From the sequence record NC_000866.4: a DNA stretch of 64,000 nucleotides; one strand, 5' to 3'. The position numbers were made by a program, and so were the translations under genes. This document shows positions 33,052 through 40,802 of the stretch, one piece after another. Under the pieces are notes generated by a model. The model had not been told where the DNA came from and did no database searches. It worked only from the letters and a program-made list of their open reading frames with translations. This DNA is from Escherichia phage T4. Positions within the stretch are counted from its first letter, which is position 1, and each line of letters opens with the position of its first letter.

Positions 33052-33554
33052 TTAAAAGTATTTTTTAAAACTCATCATAACTTTATCATCAACATCATTA
33101 TCAATCTGTGCAACAAGGTAAGATGACAGTTCTACTTCTTGCGGCGCGGATTGAACATTATCAGAATTAAGATATTCACGAATCCAAGGATATGGATGTT
33201 TAACCGGAGCATCGGTAATTGGGCATGGAAGACCGCACTGTTTCATACGAGATACAGTTAAGTAATCAATAAAGCTCCACATGCTATTTGTATTTAATCC
33301 AGGAACATCACCATCTTTAAATAAATGAACTGCCCAGTCTTTTTCCTGGCGGTTAACTTCCATGAAAATATCAACTGCTTCTTGTTCACACTCTTGGGCA
33401 ATTTTAACCCATTCATCACCATCAGTACCGGATTGAAGTTGACGAATAATATATTGGGTGCCTTTAAGGTGAAGCTGTTCATCACGTGCAATGAACTTCA
33501 TAATCTTGGCATTACCTTCCATGATTTCCATGTTCTTATGGAAGTTAAAGGTAC
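33052..33554 (-). CDS. nrdB: Ribonucleotide reductase small subunit NrdB, exon 2
   Basis: C-terminal NrdB sequence (MEGNAKIMKFIARDEQLHL...); 3-prime splice site placed after intron-terminal G so the junction reads VSFA-C-TFNF. Confidence 0.85.
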
Positions 33555-34152
33555 CGTATGTTCGATTGAGCTCGCTAATTCTCAACCCGTTCTCTTATGA
33601 ACTGCTGCATGTTACCATGCAGTCCAGACTATATCACAATCCCGGAGGGATTCTCCCCATTTCGAGTCGCTTGACCCTACGTCCGAAGACTAGTCGTTGA
33701 ACCTTGTTTTGCAATTGTCGCCGTGCCATCGTTTATATGTTGATGGTGATAAATCTTTCTTATCACAATATGGACAATTCAATTGAATTCTATTTGGATT
33801 TAATTTACATCTGTCATTATGTTTTAGATAAAATCCAGGACCTTTACCAATGTGACCACAGAAATCACATGTGATTTCTTTTTGTGCAGGATGGGTCCCG
33901 TTCTTAACCATTTCTAATGTTTTTGCTGATGTTCTTTTCTTATGTTCTTCCATCAGAATCTTTAGGTATAGGTCCGTTAGCATCTATCCAAATTTTTCTA
34001 TAGTTCAATTGTGCATCCTCTTAAAAGTATAATCATATTTATATTATACTAATTAAAGGTGCAAGCAAAACCTTGGCTGCTAGTTTTCCATAAAGGACTT
34101 TCCAGCAATTAAAGGAGTTTTCGATAAACGTTACCGTTTAAAGGCGCATTTT
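33555..34152 (-). mobile_element. Group I self-splicing intron in nrdB (598 nt)
   Basis: in-frame stop immediately after exon 1; exon 1 ends in U and intron ends in G; core blocks shared with the td intron; contains an endonuclease-remnant ORF. Confidence 0.85.
33690..33983 (-). pseudogene. I-TevIII: Truncated intron endonuclease remnant (I-TevIII-like)
   Basis: 97-aa intron ORF with CxxC...CxxC zinc-finger-like motifs and no recognisable nuclease domain. Confidence 0.7.
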
Positions 34153-34816
34153 ACGCAAAAGATACATAAAAACGAATAGCTTCTAAGGCATTAATAACGT
34201 GCAAACAGAGGTAAAGAGATTTCATCAGATCTCGTTTAGCTCTTTGCTCAACGTCTTTATCAGCTAGAATTAGACCTTGGTCTTTATAATATTCAACCAT
34301 GTCTTTAGCATTTTCCCATTCACGGGTTTTAACCAAGACATCATCGTAATATCGCCCAATGGACTCAGCACGTTTCATAATAGCTTCATCTAATACAATC
34401 TCATCAAACACCTTCGATGGATCAGTATAAAGATTTCGCATGATATGAGTATATGAACGACTGTGAATAGTTTCACTAAAAGTCCATGTAGCAACCCATG
34501 TATCAAGGCTTGGGTCTGAAATTAATGACATAAGTACAGCAGATGGCGCACGACCCTGAATGCTATCCAAAAGTGATTGATACTTCAGGTTGTTAGTAAA
34601 AATATTTTGCTGATACTGAGGAAGCTTATTAAATTGCGCAGCATCCATCATTAAGTTTACTTCTTCAGGACGCCAAAAAAAACTGATCTGCCGCTCAATG
34701 AGTTCTTCAAATACTCGATGTCGTTGAATATCATATCGAGCTAAACCTAATCCAGAACCAAAGAACATCGGTTCATTCAAAACATCAACTGGATTTGTAT
34801 TAAAAACTGTACTCAT
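34153..34816 (-). CDS. nrdB: Ribonucleotide reductase small subunit NrdB, exon 1
   Basis: N-terminal 221 aa of NrdB, ATG verified; ends ...ALEAIRFYVSFA. Confidence 0.88.
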
Positions 34817-35064
34817 TTAGAATCCTTAAATTTACATTTATCATAATGCCATCTTAAAGCATTGCCTTTATTAACTTTCTTACCACAGTGCGGGCAAGGT
34901 GGATACTCTGCTCCTTGTTTAGTTCTCAAAGAAATCAAATCACGGGTTTCTTTAGTATGAGGAACATCTCTTGTCGGAGAAATTGTACCATACATCGGAT
35001 TAAGCACGCCGACTTTAGCAGCAGCTATATTCTTTTTAGCTTCTTCAGTTTTAGGCTTTCTCAT
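34813..35064 (-). CDS. small Zn-ribbon / NUMOD-like protein (nrdA.1-type position)
   Basis: 83-aa ORF with CPHCGKK and TKETRDLISLRTKQG motifs resembling homing-endonuclease DNA-binding modules. Confidence 0.5.
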   Translation of the reverse strand: MRKPKTEEAKKNIAAAKVGVLNPMYGTISPTRDVPHTKETRDLISLRTKQGAEYPPCPHCGKKVNKGNALRWHYDKCKFKDSK

Positions 35065-35087
35065 CTTTTTCTTAGGTTTCTTCGCTT

Positions 35088-35513
35088 TTAGCCCTTCCTT
35101 TGGTTGCCGCCGATATTTTGTGTTTGGTTTCTTCTGTTAAACGCAGACCTGTTTTCGCTTTTTGACATTTTCAGTCTCGTTTCTTCAGAAATGACCGTAC
35201 CTTTGCGAAATTGCGAATTTAACTTCTTTGCATGGGCATATATTTTAGAATGAACTTTATAATGACGTTTCTTAGTTCCTTTCATATTGCACATCATGAA
35301 AAATGCGAATATAACAGATTTTACCGGATAAATCTTTGATAAAATAGCATGCGCTATAAAATGCTCTCTAGCTGTTAATTCAACTAAATTTTCTTTATCA
35401 TCAGAACCTCCCATGCATCTAGGGATTATATGATGTGTCTCTTTATATTCGGATAAAGGTTCCCGAGCCTGAGCTCGGGAAATTAGGTCGTTATAGATTT
35501 TTTGATAATTCAT
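35088..35513 (-). CDS. mobE: HNH homing endonuclease (MobE-like)
   Basis: 141-aa ORF with HNH motif HHIIPRCMGGSDDKENLVELTAREH; lies between nrdA and nrdB. Confidence 0.8.
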   Translation of the reverse strand: MNYQKIYNDLISRAQAREPLSEYKETHHIIPRCMGGSDDKENLVELTAREHFIAHAILSKIYPVKSVIFAFFMMCNMKGTKKRHYKVHSKIYAHAKKLNSQFRKGTVISEETRLKMSKSENRSAFNRRNQTQNIGGNQRKG

Positions 35514-37777
35514 TACAATTTACACGCTGCACAATCATCGGCTTTAGGAGTTTCTATTTCATAATCATCAGTACCAGAACCATCACGGGTATTATGATAA
35601 TAGAAATTTTTAATGCCATAATACCATCCGTATAGCATGTCATCAATCATTATTGACATTGGAACCTTTCCTTTTGGAAAAATCTGCGGGTCATAATATG
35701 TATTCGCTGAAGCTGATTGACATACCCATTTCAGCATAATAGCTACCTGCGTAAGATAAGGTTTATTACCTTTCTTAGCTAATTTCCATGTATAATCATA
35801 GAGGTCTATGTTATGCTCAATATTGGGCACGACTTGATTAAAGGAACCCTCTTTTGATTCTTTAACACTTACCGGTCCACGTGGAGGCTCGTAGCCGTTT
35901 GTACTGTTAGAAACTTGGGAAGATGACTCACATGGCATAAGTGCTGATAATGTGCTATTACGGATGCCAAATAGCTTAAGGTCTTCCCGCAGCGCCGACC
36001 AGTCACAAACGTATTTTGGAGCTGCGATTTGGTCAATCTTTTTATTGTACCAGTCGATAGGTAATTCGCCTCGAGACCAACGAGTGTCTGAATAATATTC
36101 CGAAGGTCCTTTTTCTTTGGCGAGCTTAATGGATGCTTTAATGAGTCCATACTGTAATCTCTCAAATAGTTCATGTGTTAAATCGTTAGCATCTTCATAA
36201 GAAGCAAAGTTACTTGCCAGCCAAGCTGCATAGTTGGTAACACCTACACCGAGGTTACGACGCTTTTTAGCTTTTTCTGCTTCAGGAACCGGATATCCTT
36301 GGTAATCCAACAGATTATCAAGAGCACGAACTTGAACTTCTGCCAATTCATTAATTTTATCTTGGTCTTGCCAGTCAAAATTATCTAATACGAATGCAGA
36401 GAGAGTACACAATCCAATTTCAGCATCAGGGCTATTCACATCATTTGTTGGAATAGCAATTTCACAGCACAAGTTACTCTGACGAATAGGTGCCTTTTCA
36501 CGAATAAACGGAGTATAGTTATTCGTATTATCAATGAACTGCACATAAATCCTTGCTGTTCCTGAACGTTCAGTCATGAGCAATTCAAATAGTTCACGGG
36601 CTTTAATACGCTTTTTACGAATATTAGGGTCTTTTTCTGCTGCTTCGTATAATTCACGGAAACGGTCTTGGTCTTTAAAATAAGAATAATAAAGCTCGCC
36701 ACCCATTTCATGCGGACTGAACAAAGTAATGTAATCGTTTTTTCCAAAACGTTCCATCATCAAATCATTCAGTTGAACACCATAATCCATATGACGAATG
36801 CGGTTTTCTTCTACGCCTTTGTTATTTTTCAAAACGAGAAGATTTTCAACTTCCAAATGCCAAATAGGATAATAAGCAGTAGCAGCGCCGCCACGAATTC
36901 CACCCTGTGAACATGATTTAACTGCAGTCTGAAAATGTTTCCAAAAAGGAATAACACCAGTATGGCGTACTTCACCCATGCCAATCTTAGAACCTTCGGC
37001 ACGAATCATACCAACGTTAATACCAATTCCAGCGCGTTTAGAGATATATTCAACAATTGAAGCAGAAGCCTTATTGATAGACTTCAATGAATCTCCTGCC
37101 TCAATAACAACACATGAACTAAACTGTCGAGTCGGAGTACGACAACCAGCCATAATAGGAGTTGGCAATGAAATCTGTCGAGTTGATACTGCTTCATAAA
37201 AACGGATAACATGTTTTAATCTATCAACAGGTTCATCTTGATGCAGTGCCATTCCAATAGTCATAAATGCAAACTGTGGAGTTTCATAAATTTGACCAGT
37301 GGTTTTATCTTTAACTAGATATTTTTCTTTTAATTGCATTGCCCCGGAATAAGTAAATTCCATATCCCGTTCGTGCTTAATTTTTGATTCTAAAAATGTA
37401 ATTTCTTCTGCTGAATATTTTGACAATAATTCAGGGTCGTATTTACCTGCATTTACACAATAAGAAATATGGTCAATAAATGAACGTGGTTCATACTGCC
37501 CATAAACATGCTTACGAAGAGCAAACATTAAACAGCGTGCAGCTACATATTGATAATCAGGTTCTTCAACCGAAATAGAATTCGCAGCAGCCTTAATGAC
37601 AATAGTCTGAATATCATCAGTTGTCATTCCATCACGGAGATAAGATTTAATATTTTCATATAATTCATAAGGATCTACTGATGTTCCTTCAGCTGCCCAA
37701 GATAAAACTTTAATAATTTTTTGTGGGTCAAAGCTCTGAGAAACACCACTACTTTTGATAACATTAATTAATTGCAT
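35513..37777 (-). CDS. nrdA: Ribonucleotide reductase large subunit NrdA
   Basis: 754-aa ORF with ATP-cone N-terminus and class I RNR catalytic motifs; C-terminal CAACKL tail. Confidence 0.95.
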   Translation of the reverse strand: MQLINVIKSSGVSQSFDPQKIIKVLSWAAEGTSVDPYELYENIKSYLRDGMTTDDIQTIVIKAAANSISVEEPDYQYVAARCLMFALRKHVYGQYEPRSFIDHISYCVNAGKYDPELLSKYSAEEITFLESKIKHERDMEFTYSGAMQLKEKYLVKDKTTGQIYETPQFAFMTIGMALHQDEPVDRLKHVIRFYEAVSTRQISLPTPIMAGCRTPTRQFSSCVVIEAGDSLKSINKASASIVEYISKRAGIGINVGMIRAEGSKIGMGEVRHTGVIPFWKHFQTAVKSCSQGGIRGGAATAYYPIWHLEVENLLVLKNNKGVEENRIRHMDYGVQLNDLMMERFGKNDYITLFSPHEMGGELYYSYFKDQDRFRELYEAAEKDPNIRKKRIKARELFELLMTERSGTARIYVQFIDNTNNYTPFIREKAPIRQSNLCCEIAIPTNDVNSPDAEIGLCTLSAFVLDNFDWQDQDKINELAEVQVRALDNLLDYQGYPVPEAEKAKKRRNLGVGVTNYAAWLASNFASYEDANDLTHELFERLQYGLIKASIKLAKEKGPSEYYSDTRWSRGELPIDWYNKKIDQIAAPKYVCDWSALREDLKLFGIRNSTLSALMPCESSSQVSNSTNGYEPPRGPVSVKESKEGSFNQVVPNIEHNIDLYDYTWKLAKKGNKPYLTQVAIMLKWVCQSASANTYYDPQIFPKGKVPMSIMIDDMLYGWYYGIKNFYYHNTRDGSGTDDYEIETPKADDCAACKL

Positions 37778-38331: not shown

Positions 38332-38643
38332 TTACACCGCCATCTTTCCTTTAATAGGAGGGTGTGATACATAGTTGTTAAGAACGAAATCTTTAGGCCT
38401 AAGTTTAAGAACATATTTTAATTGTTCTTTAGTAGAAAGATATCGGAATTTATAAGGTAGACCACTTATTACCAGCTCACAAAGCTCTTTAGGTTCACGC
38501 CTCAAAATTTCTTTACATTGTTCTACGTGATTCATATAGATATGAGTATTACCACCAGAAAATATCAAATCCCCTGGAATAAGATTACACATCTTAGCTA
38601 CAATATGAACTAACGTAGCATATGACGCAATATTAAACGGTAG
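38332..38643 (-). CDS. td: Thymidylate synthase, exon 2
   Basis: C-terminal thymidylate synthase sequence [11 protein letters not shown]...; the ATG at 38644-38646 is the last 3 nt of the intron. Confidence 0.9.
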
Positions 38644-39660
38644 CATTATGTTCAGATAAGGTCGTTAATCTTACCCCGGAATTATATCCAGCTGCATGTC
38701 ACCATGCAGAGCAGACTATATCTCCAACTTGTTAAAGCAAGTTGTCTATCGTTTCGAGTCACTTGACCCTACTCCCCAAAGGGATAGTCGTTAGGCATTT
38801 ATGTAGAACCAATTCCATTTATCAGATTTTACACGATAAGTAACTAATCCAGACGAAATTTTAAAATGTCTAGCTGCATCTGCTGCACAATCAAAAATAA
38901 CCCCATCACATGAAATCTTTTTAATATTACTAGGCTTTTTACCTTTCATCTTTTCTGATATTTTAGATTTAGTTATGTCTGAATGCTTATGATTAAAGAA
39001 TGAATTATTTTCACCTGAACGATTTCTGCATTTACTACAAGTATAAGCAGAAGTTTGTATGCGAACACCGCACTTACAAAACTTATGGGTTTCTGGATTC
39101 CAACGCCCGTTTTTACTTCCGGGTTTACTGTAAAGAGCTTTCCGACCATCAGGTCCAAGTTTAAGCATCTTAGCTTTAACAGTTTCAGAACGTTTCTTAA
39201 TAATTTCTTCTTTTAATGGATGCGTAGAACATGTATCACCAAACGTTGCATCAGCAATATTGTATCCATTAATTTTAGAATTAAGCTCTTTAATCCAAAA
39301 ATTTTCTCGTTCAATAATCAAATCTTTCTCATATGGAATTTCTTCCAAAATAGAACATTCAAACACATTACCATGTTTGTTAAAAGACCTCTGAAGTTTT
39401 ATAGAAGAATGGCATCCTTTTTCTAAATCTTTAAAATGCCTCTTCCATCTCTTTTCAAAATCTTTAGCACTTCCTACATATACTTTATTGTTTAAAGTAT
39501 TTTTAATCTGATAAATTCCGCTTTTCATAAATACCTCTTTAAATATAGAAGTATTTATTAAAGGGCAAGTCCTACAATTTAGCACGGGATTGTCTACTAG
39601 AGAGGTTCCCCGTTTAGATAGATTACAAGTATAAGTCACCTTATACTCAGGCCTCAATTA
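38644..39660 (-). mobile_element. Group I self-splicing intron in td (about 1.0 kb) carrying I-TevI
   Basis: intron begins UAAUUGAGGCCUGAGUAUAAGGUGACUUAUACUUG right after exon 1 and ends ...AACAUAAUG before exon 2. Confidence 0.92.
38791..39528 (-). CDS. I-TevI: Intron-encoded GIY-YIG homing endonuclease I-TevI
   Basis: 245 aa from ATG at 39528, N-terminus MKSGIYQIKNTLNNKVYVGSAKDFEKRWKRH; track ORF extended 43 codons upstream into intron sequence. Confidence 0.93.
   Translation of the reverse strand: MKSGIYQIKNTLNNKVYVGSAKDFEKRWKRHFKDLEKGCHSSIKLQRSFNKHGNVFECSILEEIPYEKDLIIERENFWIKELNSKINGYNIADATFGDTCSTHPLKEEIIKKRSETVKAKMLKLGPDGRKALYSKPGSKNGRWNPETHKFCKCGVRIQTSAYTCSKCRNRSGENNSFFNHKHSDITKSKISEKMKGKKPSNIKKISCDGVIFDCAADAARHFKISSGLVTYRVKSDKWNWFYINA

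Positions 39661-40802
<1,142 letters not shown>

What the first reader, a model, noticed from the sequence alone, without database searches (positions are those of the whole stretch)
33555..34152. Group I intron in nrdB with a decayed homing-endonuclease ORF
A 598-nt interruption splits NrdB. Splice boundaries were inferred so that exon 1 ends in U, the intron ends in G, and the junction restores VSFA-C-TFNF, which aligns with the conserved NrdB VSFAC block. The intron ORF is only 97 aa and retains Cys-pair zinc-ribbon motifs without a nuclease domain, which suggests a truncated I-TevIII-like endonuclease and an intron that is now immobile.
Basis: partly seen in the sequence, partly recalled or inferred. 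Interest (0 to 1): 0.45.

Follow-up and report, generated by a model that had tools for sequence, protein, structure and literature searches.

The report
Phage T4 nrdB intron, defunct I-TevIII
This is the well-known self-splicing group I intron in the ribonucleotide reductase small-subunit gene (nrdB) of bacteriophage T4, carrying the deletion-crippled remnant of the homing endonuclease I-TevIII; it is real, correctly placed, and already fully described in the literature.

Summary
The window is phage T4 (intron 100% identical to T4 records). nrdB lies on the minus strand: exon 1 34816-34153, a 598-nt intron 34152-33555, and exon 2 33554-33052. The intron-less nrdB of phage RB32 aligns with one clean 598-nt gap at exactly these coordinates. 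Splicing gives a 388-aa NrdB that aligns without a gap to E. coli R2 across VSFAC|TFNF.

The insert is a group I intron. It has a P1 U·G pair, a terminal G, and P2-P9 plus P7.1/P7.2. All 64 modelled pairs hold in 8 natural variants, with 3 compensatory changes. Rfam scores the T4 copy below threshold (35.7 bits), but shorter natural alleles with nearly the same core pass (57.9 and 68.6 bits).

The 97-aa ORF is a relic of I-TevIII. Relative to the 1091-nt RB3-type intron, T4 lacks 491 nt between GAAGAACA/GAAGACCA repeats. That removes the HNH nuclease and shifts the frame, leaving 22 N-terminal codons and residues 186-269 with both zinc fingers.

All this is published (1986-2009). One nuance: the intron cannot home by itself, but the neighbouring MobE endonuclease mobilises it in trans. 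Novelty: already known. Interest is low.

The parts
34153..34816 (-). nrdB exon 1 (664 nt; codons 1-221 plus the first base of Cys222). It ends in U.
   Evidence: ORF list; splice reconstruction; alignment to intron-less RB32 nrdB.
33555..34152 (-). Group I intron (subgroup IA-type), 598 nt. It starts AAAAUGCGCC and ends ...CAUACG with a terminal G.
   Evidence: Exact 598-nt gap against RB32. 100% identical to T4 records. Rfam Intron_gpI at 35.7 bits, E 2.8e-7. Shorter alleles with nearly the same core score 57.9 and 68.6 bits, above the gathering score of 50.
33052..33554 (-). nrdB exon 2 (503 nt including the stop). It starts GUACCUUUAAC and completes Cys222-Thr-Phe-Asn-Phe.
34065..34156 (-). 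5' half of the ribozyme.
- P1: exon GCGU 34156-34153 pairs with intron GCGC 34147-34144, with U·G at the splice site.
- P2: 34139-34126, GUAA loop.
- P3 5' strand: 34117-34112.
- P4: 34107-34102 with 34083-34078.
- P5: 34097-34087.
- P6 5' strand: 34076-34075.
- P6a 5' strand: 34071-34065.
   Evidence: Helices mapped by hand and checked as standard pairs. They are 100% paired in 8 variants, with 2 compensatory pairs in P2. Most hairpins are recovered by MFE folding of the ORF-less mini-intron.
34013..34062 (-). I-TevIII expression signals in the P6a loop. A hairpin pairs GCACCUUU with the Shine-Dalgarno AAGAGGA (34022-34016). The T4 late-promoter consensus TATAAATA (34043-34036) sits in its loop.
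   Evidence: Fold at -14.3 kcal/mol, z = -3.2; TATAAATA match. The role in late-only translation is inferred; PMC2790892 cites Gott et al. 1988 for translational control of the three T4 intron ORFs.
33940..34008 (-). N-terminal relic of I-TevIII: the native TTG start, 22 codons (NYRKIWIDANGPIPKDSDGRT), then a TAA created by the deletion.
   Evidence: Identical to codons 1-22 of RB5 I-TevIII. Only a sub-threshold HNH_3 fragment is detected.
33942..33944 (-). Deletion junction. Relative to the RB3/RB5-type intron, 491 nt (I-TevIII codons 23-185 plus 2 nt) are missing. The deletion lies between the imperfect direct repeats GAAGAACA and GAAGACCA, and it shifts the frame.
   Evidence: Pairwise and multiple alignments; junction analysis.
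33690..33983 (-). The 97-aa ORF, known as 'defective I-TevIII' (and as 'URF aa 1-97' in the 1986 record). Residues 1-13 are out-of-frame filler. Residues 14-97 correspond to I-TevIII 186-269. Zinc finger 1 is at 33869-33807 and zinc finger 2 at 33776-33711. The TAG stop lies inside P7.
   Evidence: BLASTP to RB5 I-TevIII: 85/89 identical over residues 181-269. No Pfam nuclease domain. GenBank annotations.
33555..33712 (-). 3' half of the ribozyme.
- P6a' 33712-33706 and P6' 33703-33702.
- P7: 33695-33691 with 33631-33627.
- P7.1: 33690-33681. P7.2: 33677-33664.
- P3': 33658-33653.
- P8: 33652-33638.
- P9: 33622-33605, GUAA loop.
- A terminal hairpin at 33585-33566.
- Terminal G at 33555.
   Evidence: Rfam alignment of the R/S elements GUUCAACGACUA and GAUAUAGUCU. 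Pair counts show a compensatory G-C/A-U change in P9. This segment also matches introns in many unrelated phages.
34813..35513 (-). mobE, a free-standing HNH homing endonuclease gene between nrdA and nrdB. It is the trans-acting driver of nrdB-intron inheritance. In this window it appears as two ORFs (141 aa and 83 aa) because of two extra bases.
   Evidence: ORFs. Pfam HNH plus NUMOD3 on the 232-aa version. Comparison with other T4 assemblies. Function from PMC2790892.
34686..34703 (-). Polymorphic stretch of nrdB exon 1 (about nt 114-131), just upstream of the FFWRPEE codons. MobE nicks the intron-less T2 allele here. The T4 sequence differs here from alleles that lack mobE.
   Evidence: T4 vs RB32 alignment shows a divergent block at 34698-34691. 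Nick-site location from PMC2790892.

Best explanation
Window 33555-34152 (minus strand) is the self-splicing group I intron of the phage T4 nrdB gene.

How it splices. The pre-mRNA folds into a group I ribozyme: P1 with a U·G pair at the 5' splice site, the P3-P8 core with the guanosine-binding P7, the P7.1/P7.2 helices typical of subgroup IA, P9, and a terminal G. Two transesterifications remove the 598 nt. This joins ...GUA UCU UUU GCG U to GU ACC UUU AAC, restoring codon Cys222 and a 388-aa NrdB (R2) protein.

The ORF. The loop of P6a once held a complete homing-endonuclease gene, I-TevIII. That protein is 269 aa, with an N-terminal HNH nuclease and a C-terminal DNA-binding and dimerisation domain with two zinc fingers. 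It survives intact in RB3-type phages. In T4, a 491-nt deletion between two 8-nt imperfect repeats removed codons 23-185 and shifted the frame. What remains is:
- the intact late promoter, the Shine-Dalgarno-masking hairpin and the TTG start;
- a 22-codon N-terminal stub;
- a 97-codon ORF whose last 84 codons are I-TevIII residues 186-269.

Consequences. The nuclease is dead, so the intron cannot home by its own enzyme. It is still inherited at high frequency in crosses with intron-less phages. The neighbouring free-standing HNH endonuclease MobE nicks the 5' part of intron-less nrdB, and repair co-converts the intron (trans homing).

Shown here: the boundaries, the structure, the deletion and the domain content. 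[quoted passage not shown]
For: Identity: the intron is 100% identical to T4 records. The 2.6-kb region is 99.9% identical.

Boundaries: there is a precise 598-nt gap against intron-less RB32 nrdB. The spliced protein is 388 aa with a single Ribonuc_red_sm hit and aligns without a gap to E. coli R2 across the junction.

Ribozyme:
- Rfam Intron_gpI scores 35.7 bits, E 2.8e-7, on the window.
- It scores 57.9 bits on the 420-nt SG1 allele and 68.6 bits on the 304-nt PD112 allele, both with nearly the same core.
- 64 modelled pairs are 100% standard in 8 variants, with 3 compensatory and 3 wobble-compatible changes and none broken. Slid controls pair at 33-43%.

Endonuclease relic:
- The RB5 intron is 1091 nt with a 269-aa I-TevIII, which has HNH_3 at residues 4-48.
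- The T4 ORF matches residues 181-269 only.
- No other frame shows a nuclease.

Annotation and literature:
- HM137666.1 'truncated homing endonuclease ... group 1A intron in nrdB'.
- X04140.1 has a joined nrdB CDS and 'URF aa 1-97'.
- PMC1865063 and PMC2790892.
Against: The T4 copy does not reach Rfam's gathering score, and the whole-window gathering scan returned nothing. This is explained by the roughly 350-nt ORF-bearing insert in the P6a loop. The textbook td intron in the same window is missed entirely.

The structure was derived from the T4 sequence, and the 8 variants are close relatives, so the covariation evidence is modest (3 compensatory pairs).

Splicing and mobility were not, and cannot be, tested here.
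Confidence: 0.97

Rival explanations
1. 'Gene in pieces'. The insert is a non-splicing remnant of a mobile endonuclease. It splits nrdB into two separately translated polypeptides that reassemble into active R2, as described for the phage Aeh1 nrdA gene split by mobE.
For: Automatic annotations of several genomes call two separate nrdB CDSs (666 nt and 480 nt), for example OZ209023.1 and OL964735.1. In-frame internal starts exist in exon 2.
Against: The insert carries a complete group I core that passes Rfam's threshold in ORF-less alleles, with compensatory changes. The boundaries fit the U/G group I rules exactly and restore a conserved codon. The 480-nt second 'CDS' starts 24 codons downstream of the junction, so conserved R2 residues would be lost. 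Curated records join the exons. PMC1865063 and PMC2790892 describe the intron as self-splicing.
Confidence: 0.01
2. The insert is an intein or contiguous coding sequence that is translated through.
For: None beyond the fact that ribonucleotide reductase genes often host inteins.
Against: The exon 1 frame hits TAA at the very junction (34153-34151). The 97-aa ORF is not in phase as a fusion, and there is no Hint or LAGLIDADG domain.
Confidence: 0.003
3. The zinc-finger remnant is not junk. It is expressed and retained for a function, such as a DNA-binding or dimerising regulator, or an inhibitor of full-length I-TevIII from co-infecting phages. This would add to the best explanation rather than exclude it.
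For: The late promoter, the Shine-Dalgarno hairpin and the TTG start are intact in T4. At least four different deletions in natural phages (T4/LH2, AV114, SG1, PD112) remove the HNH region, and three of them keep at least zinc finger 2. The AV114 deletion is in frame and yields a 101-aa HNH-less protein from the native start. Residues 194-241 mediate dimerisation (PMC1865063).
Against: - In T4 the native start now leads to a 22-aa stub. The ATG of the 97-aa ORF has no good ribosome-binding site (read directly from the sequence).
- The 194C fragment did not bind DNA and 166C was the minimal binding construct. T4 keeps only residues from 186.
- The 3' end of the ORF overlaps P6a', P6 and P7, so part of it is kept for the ribozyme.
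- ORF-less alleles exist (PD112).
- LH2, FL23 and SG1 have also lost the late promoter.
- The published view is ongoing erosion.
Confidence: 0.04

Closest known systems
Phage T4 nrdB group I intron (Sjoberg et al. 1986, GenBank X04140.1; Gott et al. 1986; subgroup IA)
   Same: It is this very element. The window matches X04140.1 100% over the one 161-nt mobE stretch compared, including two idiosyncratic bases upstream. Intron length (598 nt), the joined CDS and 'URF aa 1-97' all agree.
   Different: Nothing.
RB3-type nrdB intron with intact I-TevIII (Eddy & Gold 1991, X59078.1; Robbins et al. 2007, PMC1865063)
   Same: Same insertion site, same ribozyme core (98% identical), same promoter, Shine-Dalgarno and TTG start, and the same C-terminal 84 codons.
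   Different: [quoted passage not shown] T4 lacks 491 nt, so it has no HNH motif, a shifted frame and no autonomous homing.
T4 td intron / I-TevI and nrdD intron / I-TevII
   Same: These are sister group I introns of the same phage, in nucleotide-metabolism genes. The td intron's endonuclease ORF lies inside the intron, as seen in this window. PMC2790892 reports late-only translational control for all three intron ORFs. The td intron is in this window at about 38647-39657.
   Different: Their endonucleases are intact and the introns home autonomously (PMC1865063 introduction). I-TevI belongs to the GIY-YIG family rather than the HNH family (PMC2790892).
Trans-mobilisation of a defunct element by a neighbouring free-standing endonuclease (MobE; Wilson & Edgell 2009, PMC2790892)
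   Same: mobE is present immediately upstream of nrdB in the window (34813-35513). The polymorphic MobE target region of nrdB exon 1 is also present.
   Different: In this window mobE is interrupted by two single-base insertions. These are found otherwise only in the 1986 sequence and are absent from every T4 whole-genome record returned by the search, so they are most likely historical sequencing errors.

Membership tests
Group I intron (Rfam RF00028 Intron_gpI) | Precise interruption of a conserved gene that is absent from otherwise collinear alleles | tested here: met
   RB32 nrdB aligns with one 598-nt gap at 34152..33555. Most T4-like phages lack the insert: 877 records match the region, and only about 127 carry the intron.
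Group I intron (Rfam RF00028 Intron_gpI) | 5' exon ends in U paired with G of the internal guide sequence (P1), and the intron ends in G | tested here: met
   Exon ...GCGU pairs with intron G6-C9 (GCGC), giving U(-1)·G6. The last intron base is G at 33555.
Group I intron (Rfam RF00028 Intron_gpI) | Conserved catalytic core P3-P8 with the P7 guanosine-binding helix (R and S elements) | tested here: met
   GUUCAACGACUA and GAUAUAGUCU align to the model consensus. P3, P4, P5, P6, P7 and P8 all form standard pairs in 8 variants.
Group I intron (Rfam RF00028 Intron_gpI) | Score at or above the curated gathering threshold (50 bits) | tested here: inconclusive
   The T4 copy scores 35.7 bits (E 2.8e-7), below threshold, and the whole-window gathering scan found nothing. 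Natural alleles with nearly the same core and a shorter P6a loop score 57.9 (SG1) and 68.6 (PD112). The td intron control is missed completely, so the shortfall is a limit of the method.
Group I intron (Rfam RF00028 Intron_gpI) | Covariation supporting the helices | tested here: met
   Three pairs change on both sides (two in P2, one in P9), three change to wobble pairs, and none of 512 cells is unpaired. Slid controls pair at 33-43%. The sample is small and closely related.
Group I intron (Rfam RF00028 Intron_gpI) | Guanosine-dependent self-splicing | not testable with these tools
Subgroup IA group I introns | Extra helices P7.1 and P7.2 between P7 and P3' | tested here: met
   GUC-UUCG-GAC and GGGUC-AAGC-GACUC hairpins lie at 33690-33664. 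They appear as a 29-nt insert relative to the Rfam consensus, are predicted by MFE folding, and are invariant. GenBank calls it a 'group 1A intron'.
I-TevIII / HNH homing endonucleases | HNH (beta-beta-alpha-metal) catalytic motif | tested here: not met
   The T4 97-aa ORF has no HNH hit. Only codons 1-22 survive, in another frame. In RB5 the HNH_3 domain spans residues 4-48. The catalytic residues H26, H27, N39 and H48 (PMC1865063) lie in the deleted 491 nt. The ORF is therefore a relic of the family, not a functional member.
I-TevIII / HNH homing endonucleases | C-terminal domain with two CX2CX12-13HX3C zinc fingers | tested here: met
   C39-C42-H55-C59 and C70-C73-H87-C91 of the ORF correspond to I-TevIII C211/C214 and C242/C245. 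The match to residues 181-269 is 96% identical (PMC1865063).
I-TevIII / HNH homing endonucleases | Site-specific cleavage of the intron-less allele and autonomous homing | not testable with these tools
   Published: the T4 version is non-functional and the RB3 version is active (PMC1865063, PMC2790892).
Intein | In-frame insertion with Hint splicing domains | tested here: not met
   A stop codon lies at the junction (34153-34151), and no Hint domain is found.

The most novel reading that the evidence does not exclude
The HNH-less zinc-finger remnant of I-TevIII is expressed and kept for a function, for example a dimerising or DNA-binding factor that interferes with full-length I-TevIII or regulates the nrd region. 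In T4 the remnant is the 97-aa ORF. In AV114-type phages it is an in-frame 101-aa version translated from the native start. On this reading, the recurrent independent deletions of the nuclease half would reflect domestication rather than simple decay.
Probability: 0.04. Interest if true: 0.45.

Novelty: already known. Interest (0 to 1): 0.06.

Why it matters
As a discovery it does not matter, because this is a textbook element:
- It is one of the three phage T4 group I introns, described in 1986.
- Its ORF was shown in 1991 to be a deletion derivative of the RB3 version.
- The intact enzyme was characterised in 2007.
- The intron's MobE-dependent trans-homing was shown in 2009.

It is useful as a calibration point.
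- A reader working from raw sequence placed both splice sites exactly and inferred the right endonuclease family.
- A standard Rfam gathering scan misses both group I introns in this window that carry endonuclease ORFs (nrdB and td). A null result from such a scan should therefore not be read as absence.

Public genomes now show a complete decay series for this one intron: full-length, four different deletions flanked by short repeats, and a 304-nt ORF-less form. This is a clean natural illustration of the homing-endonuclease life cycle.

Tried and rejected
- Whole-window Rfam scan at gathering thresholds: no matches. I re-ran locally with E-value thresholds and on shorter natural alleles to resolve this.
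- td intron as a positive control for Rfam: not detected even at E <= 0.01. The null scan therefore reflects ORF-bearing loops, not absence of introns.
- Generic sigma-70 promoter and intrinsic-terminator scan of 33500-35600: matches at chance level and no terminators. It is uninformative for T4 late promoters. TATAAATA is also not enriched in the window (13 found, 9.2 expected), so the promoter assignment rests on position and the literature.
- Accession NC_000866 is not in the phage collection. Provenance was inferred from X04140.1 and other T4 records instead.
- MFE folding cannot show P3 and P7 together because they form a pseudoknot. They were checked by explicit pair counting.
- Intein, read-through and split-gene readings were considered and rejected (see the rival explanations).
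- Large protein-database searches, structure prediction and metagenome scans were not run. The identity of the element was settled without them.

Full report
**1. What the window is.** The 2.6-kb stretch around the finding is 99.9% identical to Escherichia phage T4 (OZ209023.1). The 598-nt feature itself is 100% identical to two T4 records. The gene order on the minus strand is nrdA, mobE, nrdB, denA, rnlA. The only record that matches a 161-nt mobE stretch perfectly is X04140.1, the 1986 T4 nrdB sequence. Its annotation already has a two-piece nrdB CDS and a 'URF (aa 1-97)'.

**2. The observation.** On the minus strand, exon 1 (34816-34153) ends ...GUA UCU UUU GCG U. The next three bases in frame read UAA. 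The insert runs 34152-33555, from AAAAUGCGCC to ...AACAUACG. Exon 2 (33554-33052) begins GU ACC UUU AAC UUC.

- A global alignment with the uninterrupted nrdB of phage RB32 gives one 598-nt gap at exactly 34152..33555. The bases on either side of each boundary differ, so the position is unambiguous.
- The joined exons give 1167 nt and a 388-aa protein.
- That protein has one Pfam Ribonuc_red_sm match over residues 33-331.
- It aligns to E. coli R2 (1PIY and others, about 1e-127) from residue 3 to 384, with no gap at RFYVSFAC|TFNF against RFYVSFACSFAF. The junction sits just upstream of the conserved EGNAK..ARDE.LH block.

**3. It is a group I intron.**

*Rfam.* A whole-window scan at gathering thresholds found nothing. 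A local scan gave Intron_gpI at 35.7 bits, E 2.8e-7, with the 3' core elements GUUCAACGACUA and GAUAUAGUCU correctly aligned. The shortfall is explained by the roughly 350-nt ORF-bearing insert in the P6a loop. Two results support this:

- Natural alleles with nearly the same core and a shorter loop pass the 50-bit threshold over the full model. Salmonella phage SG1 (420 nt) scores 57.9 bits. Phage PD112 (304 nt, no ORF) scores 68.6 bits, E 4.6e-17.
- The textbook td intron (with I-TevI, about 38647-39657 in this window) is not found even at E <= 0.01.

*Structure.* I mapped these helices:

- P1, with the exon's U(-1) paired to G6.
- P2, with a GUAA loop.
- P3, P4, P5, P6 and P6a.
- P7, then P7.1 and P7.2.
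- P8.
- P9, with a GUAA loop, and a terminal hairpin.

On an alignment of eight natural variants, all 64 pairs are standard in all 512 cells. Three pairs change on both sides (two in P2 of SG1, one in P9 of the RB5 group). Three change to wobble pairs, and none is broken. Slid controls pair at 33-43%. The structure was drawn from the T4 sequence and the sample is closely related, so this is supportive rather than independent proof. P7.1 and P7.2 fit subgroup IA, as GenBank also states.

**4. The ORF is a relic of I-TevIII.** Phage RB5 (species RB3) carries a 1091-nt intron at the same site, with a 269-aa I-TevIII that starts at TTG. Pfam finds HNH_3 at its residues 4-48.

- T4 is nearly identical on both sides but lacks 491 nt between the imperfect repeats GAAGAACA and GAAGACCA.
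- Because 491 is not a multiple of three, the native frame (TTG at 34008) ends after 22 codons at a new TAA (33942-33940).
- The 97-aa ORF (33983-33690) starts at an out-of-frame ATG inside those N-terminal codons. It enters the I-TevIII frame at the junction.
- Its residues 14-97 are I-TevIII 186-269. BLASTP gives 96% identity over residues 181-269.
- Both CX2CX12-13HX3C fingers are retained, corresponding to C211/C214 and C242/C245 of Robbins et al..
- The catalytic residues H26, H27, N39 and H48 fall in the deleted segment. No other frame shows a nuclease.
- The ORF's TAG stop lies within P7, so its 3' end overlaps the ribozyme core.
- Upstream, the T4 late-promoter consensus TATAAATA (34043-34036) sits in the loop of a hairpin that pairs the Shine-Dalgarno AAGAGGA with GCACCUUU (-14.3 kcal/mol, z = -3.2). 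This fits the late-only translational control that PMC2790892 reports for the three T4 intron ORFs.

**5. Mechanism and mobility.** The published picture fits everything seen here.

- The T4 nrdB intron is not mobile on its own, because the N-terminal HNH domain is deleted (PMC1865063).
- In constructs tested by Robbins et al., 166C was the smallest that bound DNA. 194C did not bind, but still bound zinc and dimerised.
- The defunct element is nevertheless inherited at high frequency in T4 x T2 crosses, and this depends on an intact mobE. MobE nicks the 5' part of intron-less nrdB (PMC2790892).
- mobE lies immediately upstream in the window (34813-35513). The divergent block of exon 1 next to the FFWRPEE codons is visible in the T4/RB32 alignment.

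So 'immobile' should be read as 'unable to home autonomously, but mobilised in trans'.

**6. Rivals.**

- An intein or read-through is excluded by the stop codon at the junction and the lack of Hint domains.
- A 'genes in pieces' arrangement is suggested only by automatic annotations that call two nrdB CDSs. It is contradicted by the complete ribozyme, the exact splice rules and the curated joined CDSs.
- The one reading not excluded is that the zinc-finger remnant has some function (see the novel case). The evidence leans against it: the native start now yields a 22-aa stub, the remnant begins at residue 186 (between the DNA-binding 166C construct and the non-binding 194C construct), and ORF-less alleles exist.

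**7. Related loci.** Of 127 phage records that match the RB5 intron, 85 carry the full-length form. The others show several distinct deletions, each flanked by a short direct repeat:

| Allele | Deleted | Flanking repeat | Notes |
|---|---|---|---|
| T4 | 491 nt | GAAGAACA / GAAGACCA | keeps the left repeat copy |
| LH2, FL23 | 491 nt | GAAGAACA / GAAGACCA | same register, keeps the right repeat copy; late promoter also lost |
| AV114 | 504 nt | AAGAACA | in frame |
| SG1 | about 664 nt | AGAT | removes zinc finger 1; late promoter also lost |
| PD112 | 785 nt | ACAATTG | removes the whole ORF |

This is the expected decay path of a homing-endonuclease gene.

**8. Verdict.** The element is already known in every respect. 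Interest is low.

Noticed in passing
window 35075 and 35159 (mobE, 34813-35513, minus strand): mobE appears as two ORFs (141 aa with the HNH motif; 83 aa with a C-terminal CxxC...H...C motif). The cause is two single extra bases, G at 35075 and T at 35159. Only the 1986 record X04140.1 shares them. T4T and OL964735.1 annotate a single 699-nt, 232-aa mobE, and every T4 whole-genome record returned lacks the two bases. This is most likely a historical sequencing error carried in this sequence, not a real pseudogene.
   Followed up: yes
window 35892-35893 and 36101-36102 (nrdA): There are two adjacent-base swaps (TA vs AT, CG vs GC) relative to the modern T4 assembly OZ209023.1. This is the typical signature of old gel-reading errors, and each would change an nrdA codon.
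   Followed up: partly
window ~38647-39657 (minus strand), between td exon ORFs 39658-40209 and 38332-38646: The classic td group I intron with the I-TevI ORF is in the window. Rfam does not detect it, neither at gathering thresholds nor at E <= 0.01 in a local scan. A null Rfam result therefore says little about phage introns that carry ORFs.
   Followed up: partly
Related loci L002/L009/L010 (full length), L007/L008, L005, L004, L011: Public T4-like genomes hold a full decay series of the nrdB intron: 1091 nt (85 of 127 records), about 590-598 nt, 420 nt, and a 304-nt ORF-less form. There are at least four separate deletions, each bounded by 4-8-nt direct repeats. The AV114-type deletion (504 nt) is in frame and leaves a 101-aa HNH-less zinc-finger ORF behind the native start.
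   Followed up: partly
window 34013-34062 (minus strand): A hairpin masks the I-TevIII Shine-Dalgarno sequence, and the late-promoter consensus TATAAATA lies in its loop. Both are fully intact in T4 although the ORF behind them is broken. The promoter is damaged in LH2, FL23 and SG1 (6-nt deletion) and altered in PD112.
   Followed up: partly
window 33555-33705 (3' ribozyme core): This 150-nt core matches, at 72-96% identity, sequences in phages of Staphylococcus, Bacillus, Pseudomonas, Vibrio, Pectobacterium, Klebsiella and others. The matches lie in or beside genes such as DNA polymerase, primase/helicase, thymidylate synthase and nrdD, often next to HNH endonuclease genes. Many are unannotated ('none'), which suggests many unannotated group I introns in public phage genomes.
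   Followed up: no
window 34154 (exon 1, position -2 from the splice site): All eight intron-bearing alleles in the alignment have GCG (Ala) here, so G(-2) pairs with C7 in P1. Intron-less RB32 has the synonymous GCA, which would mismatch. This fits co-conversion, or exon adaptation to the internal guide sequence.
   Followed up: no
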